From NCBI RefSeq assembly GCF_002854065.1, contig NZ_CP024147.1: a DNA stretch of 64,000 nt. One strand, written 5' to 3'. The position numbers and the translations under genes were made by a program. The DNA is from Escherichia coli. GTDB taxonomy: Bacteria > Pseudomonadota > Gammaproteobacteria > Enterobacterales > Enterobacteriaceae. Under the pieces are notes generated by a model. That model was not told the DNA's origin and searched no databases. It saw only the letters and a program-made list of their open reading frames with translations. Shown here in pieces: positions 51,207 through 51,710 of this stretch; position 1 is the first letter of the stretch, and every line of letters starts with the position of its first letter.

Positions 51207-51710
51207 ACAGAAATTGTTATTTAGATAAATATGGCGATGCAAATATCAATCATTATTATAGAAACTTAGAAATAAAACACTCACAACCCAAAAATAGAGC
51301 ATCAAGCAAAAGAGTAAGTTAACATCATTGTTAATTAATTCGACTAGTCAGTAAATATGCTGACTGGTCGAACATAGTTTACTAAAAAGTCATCACTGAC
51401 TGATGTCAGTCACACCATCCGCCAGTTCAATCTTCGGGTATTTCCAGCGTATCTCGGCACGCGATTGCTGGTCTGTTGATGTAGTGGATTGTTGTTGCTG
51501 ACTTTTCTTACCCTCAGATTTCTGCCCCCTGTCAACTCAATCTGCCAATAAATAACATAATTATATTTTTCCTTATATGAATTCCTTTTTAAAATAGCGA
51601 AGCCACTGTAAAAGATACTTTTTGTATAGATCTAACAACCGTAATAAAACAAACAGTCATAACTCATTATAAATAATGATAAAATAACGTCTTTTATTGA
51701 TAATTTACAT

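What the first reader, a model, noticed from the sequence alone, without database searches (positions are those of the whole stretch)
51340..51415. Two TGACTG-containing palindromes in the AT-rich non-coding DNA downstream of elaD
gactagtcag-N8-ctgactggtc (about 51342-51369, 9 of 10 arm match) and the perfect tgactga-tg-tcagtca (about 51397-51412) lie 30 bp apart in a roughly 500-bp ORF-free, AT-rich stretch. They share the half-site TGACTG/CAGTCA, which would fit paired operators for a dimeric regulator, a residual promoter region of a deleted divergent gene, or a structured RNA. No known E. coli motif comes to mind for this half-site.
Basis: seen in the sequence. Interest (0 to 1): 0.3.

Follow-up and report, generated by a model that had tools for sequence, protein, structure and literature searches.

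The report
Gene-end hairpin plus deleted-gene relic
The first palindrome is an ordinary RNA stem-loop that sat between the ends of two facing E. coli genes (elaD and yfbK). The second is just the last six codons of yfbK, left behind when that gene was deleted, so the pair is not a regulator's binding site.

Summary
Both palindromes are real, but they are two unrelated things.

**Palindrome 1 (51339-51372).** It is longer than reported: 13-nt arms, 12 of 13 complementary. In E. coli K-12 it is a perfect 15-16 bp stem (-27 to -29 kcal/mol). There it fills the 70-nt gap between the stop codons of the convergent genes elaD and yfbK. It is single-copy and has no U-tract on either strand. E. albertii, which lacks elaD, keeps it next to yfbK with one compensatory pair. 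Other lineages have different stable hairpins at the same spot.

It is best read as a 3'-UTR stem-loop that defines or protects the RNA end, probably together with Rho. A published Rho-termination region lies about 140 nt upstream of it on the elaD strand.

**Palindrome 2 (51397-51412).** On the minus strand it is the last codons of yfbK (V-T-D-I-S-Q, then stop). This strain has lost most of yfbK. As a structure it is no better than shuffled sequence. About 49 such 7+7 palindromes are expected per 64 kb. It is polymorphic and absent from yfbK in sister lineages.

**Shared heptamer.** CTGACTG is fourfold over-represented in the window, and the half-sites have opposite order and different spacing in the two palindromes. 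The paired-operator idea is not supported. The finding is ordinary and of low interest.

The parts
50102..51322 (+). elaD (deubiquitinase) pseudogene; stop codon at 51320-51322
   Evidence: RefSeq annotation of the 100% identical strain CUWW06 reads 'frameshifted'. Alignment to K-12 elaD shows a +1 G at 50837, a -1 A at 51152 and a 9-nt in-frame insertion at 50423-50431.
51339..51372 (.). Palindrome 1: a stem-loop in the 3' region once shared by convergent elaD (+) and yfbK (-). Arms 51339-51351 and 51360-51372.
   Evidence: Found by the repeat scan. Folding energy is -22.6 kcal/mol on the + strand and -17.0 on the - strand here, and -26.9 / -29.1 in K-12, with z from -6.7 to -11. In K-12 it lies in the 70-nt gap between the two stop codons. 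It is single-copy and present in 4171 of 5426 E. coli genomes. E. albertii has a homologous hairpin next to yfbK.
51373..51389 (-). Spacer between the former yfbK stop codons and the hairpin (yfbK 3' UTR)
   Evidence: Alignment with K-12.
51390..51395 (-). Tandem TGA stop codons of yfbK. The annotated stop is 51393-51395, followed by an in-frame second TGA at 51390-51392.
   Evidence: K-12 yfbK annotation and translations.
51397..51412 (-). Palindrome 2: the former codons Val-Thr-Asp-Ile-Ser-Gln at the C-terminus of YfbK
   Evidence: K-12 translates as ...ELADGVTDISQ* and the window as ...IELADGVTDISQ**. Its fold is no better than shuffles. Three of its 16 positions are polymorphic among E. 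coli. It is absent from yfbK of E. albertii, E. whittamii, group B2 E. coli and Superficieibacter.
51382..51432 (-). yfbK relic, piece 1: the last 12 codons, the stop codons and part of the 3' UTR. 98% identical to K-12.
   Evidence: blastn against K-12.
51432..51454 (-). yfbK relic, piece 2: a 21-23 nt internal fragment encoding ...IRWKYP, in frame with piece 1
   Evidence: blastn matches at the corresponding yfbK position in K-12, E. albertii, E. whittamii and MOD1-EC7003, and the translation.
51455..51576 (-). yfbK relic, piece 3: the 5' end of the gene, about 71% identical to K-12 over a match that runs on to 51720. The start codon is mutated (ATG to ATA, 51574-51576) and there are stops in frame.
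   Evidence: blastn and sequence comparison with K-12 and AREA_499.
51577..51711 (.). Former yfbK/yfbL divergent promoter region, 24% G+C
   Evidence: Homology to the K-12 yfbK-yfbL intergenic region, promoter-like matches at 51676-51740 and composition.
51712..52310 (+). yfbL (M28 peptidase) pseudogene with a large internal deletion
   Evidence: Annotation reads 'frameshifted; internal stop'. Alignment to K-12 yfbL shows a gap of about 326 nt.

Best explanation
The two palindromes are unrelated leftovers of the junction between two convergent genes.

**Shown.**
- In yfbK-carrying E. coli such as K-12, elaD (+) and yfbK (-) end 70 nt apart. Palindrome 1 is a perfect 15-16 bp stem-loop in that gap.
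- Palindrome 2 is the last six codons of yfbK.
- The window's strain, like about half of sequenced E. coli, has lost most of yfbK through two internal deletions. It keeps the hairpin, the stop codons and the last 12 codons.

**Inferred.**
- Palindrome 1 works at the RNA level as a 3'-UTR stem-loop. It was originally the 3' hairpin of yfbK mRNA, and after elaD arrived it also served elaD mRNA.
- It has no U-tract, so it is not a classical intrinsic terminator.
- More likely, transcription past the stop codon is ended by Rho, or in yfbK-carrying strains by polymerases meeting head-on. 3'-to-5' exonucleases then trim back to the base of the stem, which fixes and protects the 3' end.
- In this strain elaD is also a pseudogene, so the hairpin is probably a still-foldable relic.
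- Palindrome 2 has no function of its own. The shared CTGACTG is coincidence helped by the high frequency of that word in E. coli.
For: **Gene context.**
- K-12 annotation and sequence: elaD ends at L002 position 2332, yfbK (-) spans 2403-4130, and the hairpin is at 2349-2382.
- Translations place palindrome 2 in codons VTDISQ*.
- The yfbK relic has three pieces.

**Hairpin stability.** z is -10 to -11 in K-12 and -6.7 to -8.6 here.

**Comparative evidence.**
- The element is single-copy in 4171 of 5426 genomes.
- E. albertii has no elaD, yet keeps a homologous hairpin 24 nt after the yfbK stop, with an A-U to G-C double change.
- E. whittamii, other Escherichia clades, group B2 E. coli and Superficieibacter carry unrelated stable hairpins at the same position. 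In every lineage these fold better on the yfbK strand.

**Terminator features.**
- There is no U-tract, and neither version is called by the terminator scan.
- The 60 nt downstream on the + strand are C-rich and G-poor, with C/G about 2.0-2.1.

**Published data.**
- Adams et al. 2021 (PMC7815308, supplementary file 2) list a Rho-termination region at MG1655 2383800 (+), Rho score 3.6. That is about 140 nt upstream of the hairpin at 2383941-2383974.
- Dar and Sorek 2018 (PMC6061677) show that Rho-dependent transcripts end at stable stem-loops lacking U-tracts, and that these protect against exonucleases.

**Palindrome 2 and the heptamer are ordinary**.
Against: - No mapped RNA 3' end is available at the hairpin. 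Adams et al. list no Term-seq 3' end between 2383800 and 2384099 in three growth conditions, probably because expression is low.
- The Rho score has about 800-nt resolution.
- Within E. coli the stem is as polymorphic as its flanks: about 5 variable sites in 30 stem positions, against about 4 in 17 and about 8 in 43 in the flanks.
- Covariation is one compensatory pair and not significant; 139-142 of 500 shuffles reach it.
- The hairpin is absent from group B2 E. coli and E. whittamii, which carry intact yfbK. It is therefore replaceable.
Confidence: 0.72

Rival explanations
1. Palindrome 1 is a true bidirectional intrinsic (Rho-independent) terminator for the convergent pair, releasing RNA polymerase by itself in both directions.
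For: It is a symmetrical, very stable stem-loop exactly between two convergent stop codons. On the yfbK strand the stem is followed by UUAAUUAA. Stem-loops are needed for programmed bidirectional termination at convergent pairs (Wang et al., bioRxiv 10.1101/2022.10.23.513370).
Against: - There is no U-tract on either strand: CAUAGUUU on the + strand, and 4 U in 8 on the - strand.
- The terminator scan does not call it in the window or in K-12.
- Transcription on the elaD strand reads through 3.6-fold more when Rho is inhibited.
- A Rho-dependent region antisense to elaD, at 2382764 (-), hints that some minus-strand transcription passes the hairpin.
Confidence: 0.13
2. Palindrome 1 has no present function in any strain. 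It would be a neutral inverted repeat, for example a decayed mobile-element end or a by-product of the rearrangement that brought in elaD.
For: Polymorphism density in the stem is similar to the flanks. Covariation is not significant. Lineages with intact yfbK do without it. It sits within about 20 nt of where elaD is inserted relative to E. albertii.
Against: - It predates elaD, because it is present in elaD-less E. albertii with a compensatory change.
- Every observed stem substitution is a transition that keeps a G.U pair on one strand.
- Unrelated stable hairpins occupy the same position after the yfbK stop in three other lineages.
- It is single-copy, so it is not a dispersed repeat.
Confidence: 0.1
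3. The two palindromes are paired operators sharing the half-site TGACTG/CAGTCA and bound by a dimeric DNA-binding regulator.
For: The two inverted repeats are 24 nt apart and share a heptamer. In the window, TGACTG-N(0-20)-CAGTCA is found once against 0.05 expected.
Against: - Palindrome 2 is coding sequence in strains that carry yfbK.
- It is polymorphic at 3 of 16 positions.
- It is missing from yfbK in sister lineages.
- Half-site order and spacing are opposite in the two elements. The pattern search finds only palindrome 2.
- They lie between two gene ends, and no promoter-like site is within 100 bp.
- CTGACTG is fourfold over-represented generally.
- The only transcription-factor peak found in the literature, for LldR by genomic SELEX, is inside yfbK about 1.15 kb away.
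Confidence: 0.03
4. The palindromes are the residual promoter or operator region of a deleted divergent gene.
For: A gene, yfbK, has indeed been deleted from this spot.
Against: yfbK is convergent with elaD, so the palindromes are at its stop codon. Its start codon relic is at 51574-51576, and its promoter region at 51577-51711 faces yfbL.
Confidence: 0.02

Closest known systems
Protective 3' stem-loops at the ends of Rho-dependent transcripts (Dar and Sorek 2018, PMC6061677)
   Same: It is an energetically very stable stem-loop just after a stop codon, with no U-rich tail. A C-rich, G-poor stretch follows on the + strand. A Rho-termination region has been reported for the elaD strand at this gene end.
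   Different: No steady-state 3' end has been mapped at this stem. The stem, at 15-16 bp, is unusually long. It can serve both strands.
Bidirectional terminators between convergent genes (SEnd-seq work of Ju et al. 2019, recalled from memory; Wang et al. bioRxiv 10.1101/2022.10.23.513370)
   Same: A single symmetrical stem-loop lies in the short gap between two convergent stop codons and folds on both strands.
   Different: It has no flanking A-tract and U-tract. In the window one partner gene is deleted and the other is a pseudogene, so polymerase collisions are no longer programmed here.
REP (repetitive extragenic palindrome) elements as 3'-UTR terminator-stabilisers (Harris et al., bioRxiv 10.64898/2026.03.23.713779)
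   Same: It is an extragenic hairpin after gene ends, including between convergent genes. The proposed dual role is partial Rho-dependent termination plus protection from decay.
   Different: It is single-copy, with one place per genome. Its sequence is unlike the REPs present elsewhere in the window at 9557, 16411 and 16498.
Canonical intrinsic terminator
   Same: A stable stem-loop downstream of a stop codon.
   Different: It lacks the U-tract and is not called by the consensus scan. The real terminator at window 27852 (GC stem followed by TTTTT) shows the contrast.

Membership tests
Intrinsic (Rho-independent) terminator | Stable, G+C-containing stem-loop in the nascent RNA | tested here: met
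   15-16 bp stem, -17 to -29 kcal/mol, z from -6.7 to -11.
Intrinsic (Rho-independent) terminator | Run of U immediately 3' of the stem | tested here: not met
   The tails are CAUAGUUU on the + strand and UUAAUUAA on the - strand. The scans of the window and of K-12 do not call it.
Protective stem-loop of Rho-dependent transcripts | Stable stem-loop in the 3' UTR without a U-rich tail | tested here: met
   It lies 17 nt after the elaD stop and 20 nt after the yfbK stop.
Protective stem-loop of Rho-dependent transcripts | Termination in the region depends on Rho | tested here: inconclusive
   Published bicyclomycin data give Rho score 3.6 at MG1655 2383800 (+), about 140 nt upstream of the stem, but with 800-nt windows. 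Nothing comparable is listed for the yfbK strand at this point.
Protective stem-loop of Rho-dependent transcripts | Steady-state RNA 3' end mapped at the base of the stem | tested here: inconclusive
   No Term-seq 3' end is listed between 2383800 and 2384099 in Adams et al. 2021. The genes are poorly expressed in those conditions.
Bidirectional terminator of a convergent gene pair | One stem-loop between convergent stop codons that folds on both strands | tested here: met
   Met in K-12. In the window the yfbK partner is deleted.
Bidirectional terminator of a convergent gene pair | Overlapping, well-defined 3' ends of both transcripts | not testable with these tools
   This needs SEnd-seq or Term-seq data for expressed elaD and yfbK.
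REP / BIME repeat | Many dispersed copies per genome with the REP consensus | tested here: not met
   One place per genome (median 1) in 4171 genomes. The sequence is unlike the window's REPs.
Transcription-factor operator pair | Same half-site orientation and spacing in both sites | tested here: not met
   CAGTCA-N10-TGACTG against TGACTG-N4-CAGTCA. The pattern search finds only palindrome 2.
Transcription-factor operator pair | Position at or near a promoter | tested here: not met
   The palindromes lie between two gene 3' ends. No promoter-like match falls within 51300-51450 or in the K-12 junction.
Transcription-factor operator pair | Conservation beyond the neutral or coding expectation | tested here: not met
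   Palindrome 2 is polymorphic at 51399, 51406 and 51412. It is absent in sister lineages with intact yfbK.
Any Rfam RNA family | Match to a curated covariance model | tested here: not met
   Only chance-level hits (E = 1-8, far below the gathering scores) in 50000-53000.

The most novel reading that the evidence does not exclude
The hairpin and the small stop-codon stem-loop might form one functional 3' module of yfbK mRNA, linked by the repeated CAGUCAG/CUGACUG words. Possibilities are a 3'-UTR-derived small RNA, or a structure that switches between alternative pairings when the ribosome terminates. Alternatively the repeated word might be recognised by an unknown protein. My data do not strictly exclude this, because no RNA 3'-end, RNA-binding or DNA-binding data exist for the site.
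Probability: 0.03. Interest if true: 0.35.

Novelty: new member of a known kind. Interest (0 to 1): 0.08.

Why it matters
It matters little. The result removes a candidate regulatory site. It shows that the 'AT-rich non-coding' stretch after elaD is a decayed yfbK gene plus the old yfbK/yfbL promoter region.

The only mildly useful points are these:
- It is a clear example of a U-tract-less 3' stem-loop shared by convergent genes, and it survives after one partner is deleted.
- Different Escherichia lineages place unrelated hairpins at the same position after yfbK. That is consistent with selection for some 3' structure rather than for a particular sequence.

Tried and rejected
- **Rfam scan** at a permissive threshold gave only chance hits to snoRNA, miRNA and SgrS models.
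- **Dispersed repeat or REP** is rejected because the element is single-copy. The E. whittamii-type hairpin looked REP-like by eye but is also single-copy at the 121-nt level, so I do not call it a REP.
- **LldR/FadR-type box (AAnTGGTCnGACCAnTT).** The published LldR genomic-SELEX peak 'elaD > yfbK > yfbL' is inside yfbK, about 1.15 kb from the palindromes. I converted coordinates using fadL as a reference. The best match at the hairpin is 9 of 14 with one good half-site only.
- **RutR-like TTGACCA-N2-TGGTCAA**, recalled from memory. The arms resemble the half-sites but are 18 nt apart, so it is rejected.
- **Strand-specific wobble pattern.** I asked whether substitutions keep pairing on the yfbK strand in strains that carry yfbK, and on the elaD strand in deletion strains. 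Only 5 events were found, with one counter-example (A5G in a yfbK-carrying strain), so the test is not significant.
- **Covariation test** is not significant.
- **Small ORF** starting at the ATG inside palindrome 2 (32 aa here, about 17 aa in K-12). It has no Shine-Dalgarno sequence and is not conserved in length, so it is rejected.
- **Extracellular 'yfbK mRNA fragments'** (PMC8082180) map to 2385392, far from the hairpin.
- **One metagenome hit** to the anchor pattern, L017, was a chance match inside an unrelated gene.
- **Papers not available.** Ju et al. 2019 is not held, and the Dar and Sorek supplementary tables are not held.
- **Terminator-like call on palindrome 2.** The scan flags palindrome 2 on the minus strand in the window. 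This depends on a strain-specific C-to-A change that creates a T-run, it is absent in K-12, and it overlaps the stop codons.

Full report
**Where the window comes from.** The window is E. coli chromosome. Positions 51200-51900 are 100% identical to strain CUWW06. Its RefSeq annotation reads rbn, elaD (frameshifted), a frameshifted 'hypothetical protein' (a yfbL pseudogene), yfbM and nuoN. The elaD stop codon is at 51320-51322.

**Checking the observation.**
- Palindrome 1 is bigger than reported. Its arms are 51339-51351 and 51360-51372, 12 of 13 complementary, 8 nt apart.
- As + strand RNA the mismatch is a G.U pair. The fold is then a 15-bp stem with a 4-nt loop at -22.6 kcal/mol (z = -8.6). 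The minus strand gives -17.0 kcal/mol.
- Palindrome 2 is TGACTGA-TG-TCAGTCA at 51397-51412 and is exact. As a structure it is indistinguishable from shuffled sequence, with z = -1.3.
- Perfect 7+7 inverted repeats with a gap of 0-10 occur 73 times in the window, against 48.7 +/- 7.9 in shuffles. A palindrome of that size is expected every kilobase or so.
- Repeats of 13+13 nt with at most 1 mismatch number five distinct in the window, against 0.6 expected. The other four are three REP elements and one canonical terminator.
- The shared heptamer CTGACTG occurs 21 times in the window against 5.0 expected. About 0.18 heptamer matches to the hairpin arms are expected within +/-60 nt. Sharing it is unremarkable.

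**What the two palindromes are.** In K-12, elaD (+) and yfbK (-) are convergent, with 70 nt between their stop codons.
- Palindrome 1 lies in that gap. There it is perfect, TTCGACCAGTCAGC-AAAT-..., folding at -26.9 kcal/mol on the + strand and -29.1 on the - strand, with z of -10 and -11.
- Palindrome 2 lies inside yfbK. On the minus strand it reads GTG ACT GAC ATC AGT CAG TGA, the C-terminus ...ELADGVTDISQ*. The window still translates as ...IELADGVTDISQ**.

**The yfbK remnant.** The window's strain has lost most of yfbK. What remains is in three pieces:
- 51382-51432: the last 12 codons, the stop codons and part of the 3' UTR, 98% identical to K-12.
- 51432-51454: a 21-23 nt internal fragment encoding IRWKYP, in frame with the first piece.
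- 51455-51576: the decayed 5' end, about 71% identical to K-12 over a match that runs on into the intergenic region. The start codon has changed from ATG to ATA at 51574-51576.

The old yfbK/yfbL divergent promoter region follows at 51577-51711, with 24% G+C. The promoter-like matches are there. The yfbL pseudogene starts at 51712. So the 'ORF-free AT-rich stretch' is mostly a dead gene plus its promoter region.

**Distribution among genomes.**
- The deletion arrangement covers at least 80% of the 701-nt query in 2579 of 5426 complete E. coli genomes.
- The 110-nt hairpin-plus-yfbK-tail segment is present once per genome in 4171 genomes, whether yfbK is intact or deleted.
- Among 91 informative sequences the split is 52 deletion type, 38 yfbK-carrying and 1 unrelated hit. 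These are mostly metagenome contigs fetched with an anchor outside the hairpin.
- Another 915 genomes, including the type strain ATCC 11775 (group B2), have no elaD. There yfbK is convergent with rbn, and the spacer carries a different 16-bp inverted repeat. E. whittamii and two unnamed Escherichia clades look the same.
- E. albertii also lacks elaD. It nevertheless keeps a hairpin homologous to palindrome 1, 24 nt after the yfbK stop. Relative to K-12 it has one A-U to G-C double change, one G.U pair and one A.A mismatch on the yfbK strand.

The hairpin therefore belongs historically to the 3' end of yfbK and predates the arrival of elaD.

**Hairpins in other lineages.** In K-12, E. albertii, E. 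whittamii and Superficieibacter, a stable hairpin follows the yfbK stop within about 6-25 nt. In each it folds better on the yfbK strand than on the opposite strand. The sequences are unrelated between lineages, apart from K-12 and E. albertii, whose hairpins are homologous.

**Palindrome 2 is not conserved.** The YfbK tail is variable: DGVTDISQ in K-12, EGLDNSQN in E. whittamii, EGLMDSRR in E. albertii and EGMSQ in Superficieibacter. Within E. coli it varies at 51399, 51406 and 51412.

**How palindrome 1 most likely works (inferred).**
- Neither strand has a U-tract after the stem. The consensus terminator scan does not call it in the window or in K-12. It is not a classical intrinsic terminator.
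- Adams et al. 2021 list a Rho-termination region on the elaD strand at MG1655 2383800. The downstream/upstream read ratio is 0.13 untreated and 0.46 with bicyclomycin, giving a Rho score of 3.6. That position is about 140 nt upstream of the hairpin at 2383941-2383974, well inside the method's 800-nt windows.
- The first 60 nt after the stem on the + strand are C-rich and G-poor, with C/G about 2.0-2.1.
- Dar and Sorek 2018 showed that Rho-dependent E. coli transcripts end precisely at stable stem-loops without U-tracts, and that these block PNPase and RNase II.
- Stem-loops between convergent genes also position head-on polymerase collisions. REP hairpins behave as partially Rho-dependent terminators and mRNA stabilisers.
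- The best reading is therefore a 3'-end-defining, protective stem-loop used by both convergent transcripts. In this strain both genes are dead, so it is probably a relic that still folds.

**Limits of the evidence.**
- No 3' end has been mapped at the stem. None is listed between 2383800 and 2384099 in Adams et al..
- Within E. coli the stem is as polymorphic as its flanks. All five stem substitutions are transitions that keep a G.U pair on one strand.
- The formal covariation test is not significant.
- A purely neutral inverted repeat cannot be excluded, and I give it about 10%.

**The operator idea.** It fails on five counts:
- Palindrome 2 is coding sequence and is not conserved.
- The half-sites are arranged CAGTCA-N10-TGACTG in one element and TGACTG-N4-CAGTCA in the other.
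- The site is between two gene ends with no promoter-like sequence nearby.
- The heptamer is a common word.
- The only transcription-factor peak found in the literature (LldR) is about 1.15 kb away, inside yfbK.

**Verdict.** The sequences are real and the explanation is ordinary. One is an undescribed but typical gene-end stem-loop. The other is a scrap of a deleted gene. Interest is low.

Noticed in passing
window 50102-51322: elaD is a pseudogene here. Relative to K-12 it has a +1 G at 50837 and a -1 A in an A-run at 51152, which shifts the frame for about 315 nt. It also has a 9-nt in-frame insertion at 50423-50431 and 47 substitutions.
   Followed up: partly
window 51712-53025: yfbL is a pseudogene with an internal deletion of about 326 nt relative to K-12. 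yfbN, yfbO and yfbP are absent, so yfbM abuts nuoN. The whole elaD-nuoN interval is a decaying, low-G+C variable region.
   Followed up: partly
window 51455-51900 compared with 51200-51432: The yfbK 5' end, intergenic region and yfbL 5' end are only about 71-80% identical to K-12. The elaD 3' end, hairpin and yfbK tail are 96-98% identical. Two deeply diverged haplotypes appear to meet at the deletion junction, which suggests old divergence or recombination.
   Followed up: no
L111 (E. coli ATCC 11775), L005 (E. whittamii) 4753-4873: 915 E. coli genomes (group B2 type) and several Escherichia species have no elaD. In them rbn and yfbK are directly convergent, with a different single-copy 16-bp inverted repeat (ATCTGTTTGCCGGATA...TATTCGGCAAACAGAT) in the spacer. 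elaD therefore looks like an insertion into the rbn/yfbK junction.
   Followed up: partly
whole window: The heptamer CTGACTG occurs 21 times against 5.0 +/- 2.0 expected from dinucleotide shuffles. This is presumably a codon-usage effect, since CTG is the commonest E. coli codon.
   Followed up: no
window 9557, 16411, 16498, 27852: These are the other long inverted repeats in the window. Three are REP elements (GCCTTATCCGGCCTAC type), and one is a textbook intrinsic terminator (GCCCGGTAA...TTACCGGGC followed by TTTTT).
   Followed up: partly
window 51836-51861, minus strand: A terminator-like hairpin followed by TTTTTT (ACAGTTTGTGTAAGATAACGAACTGT TTTTTCTCAT) lies inside the 5' part of the yfbL pseudogene, on the opposite strand.
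   Followed up: no
K-12 MG1655 2382764 (-), equivalent to the 5' part of elaD in the window: Adams et al. 2021 list a Rho-termination region antisense to elaD with score 3.6. This implies antisense transcription entering elaD, from the yfbK side or from within.
   Followed up: no
window 51396-51413 compared with L005 and L006: The palindromic K-12-type YfbK tail differs from the E. whittamii tail by a 3-nt insertion (ACT), several substitutions and an earlier stop. The palindrome arose recently in a poorly constrained C-terminal tail (by inspection).
   Followed up: partly
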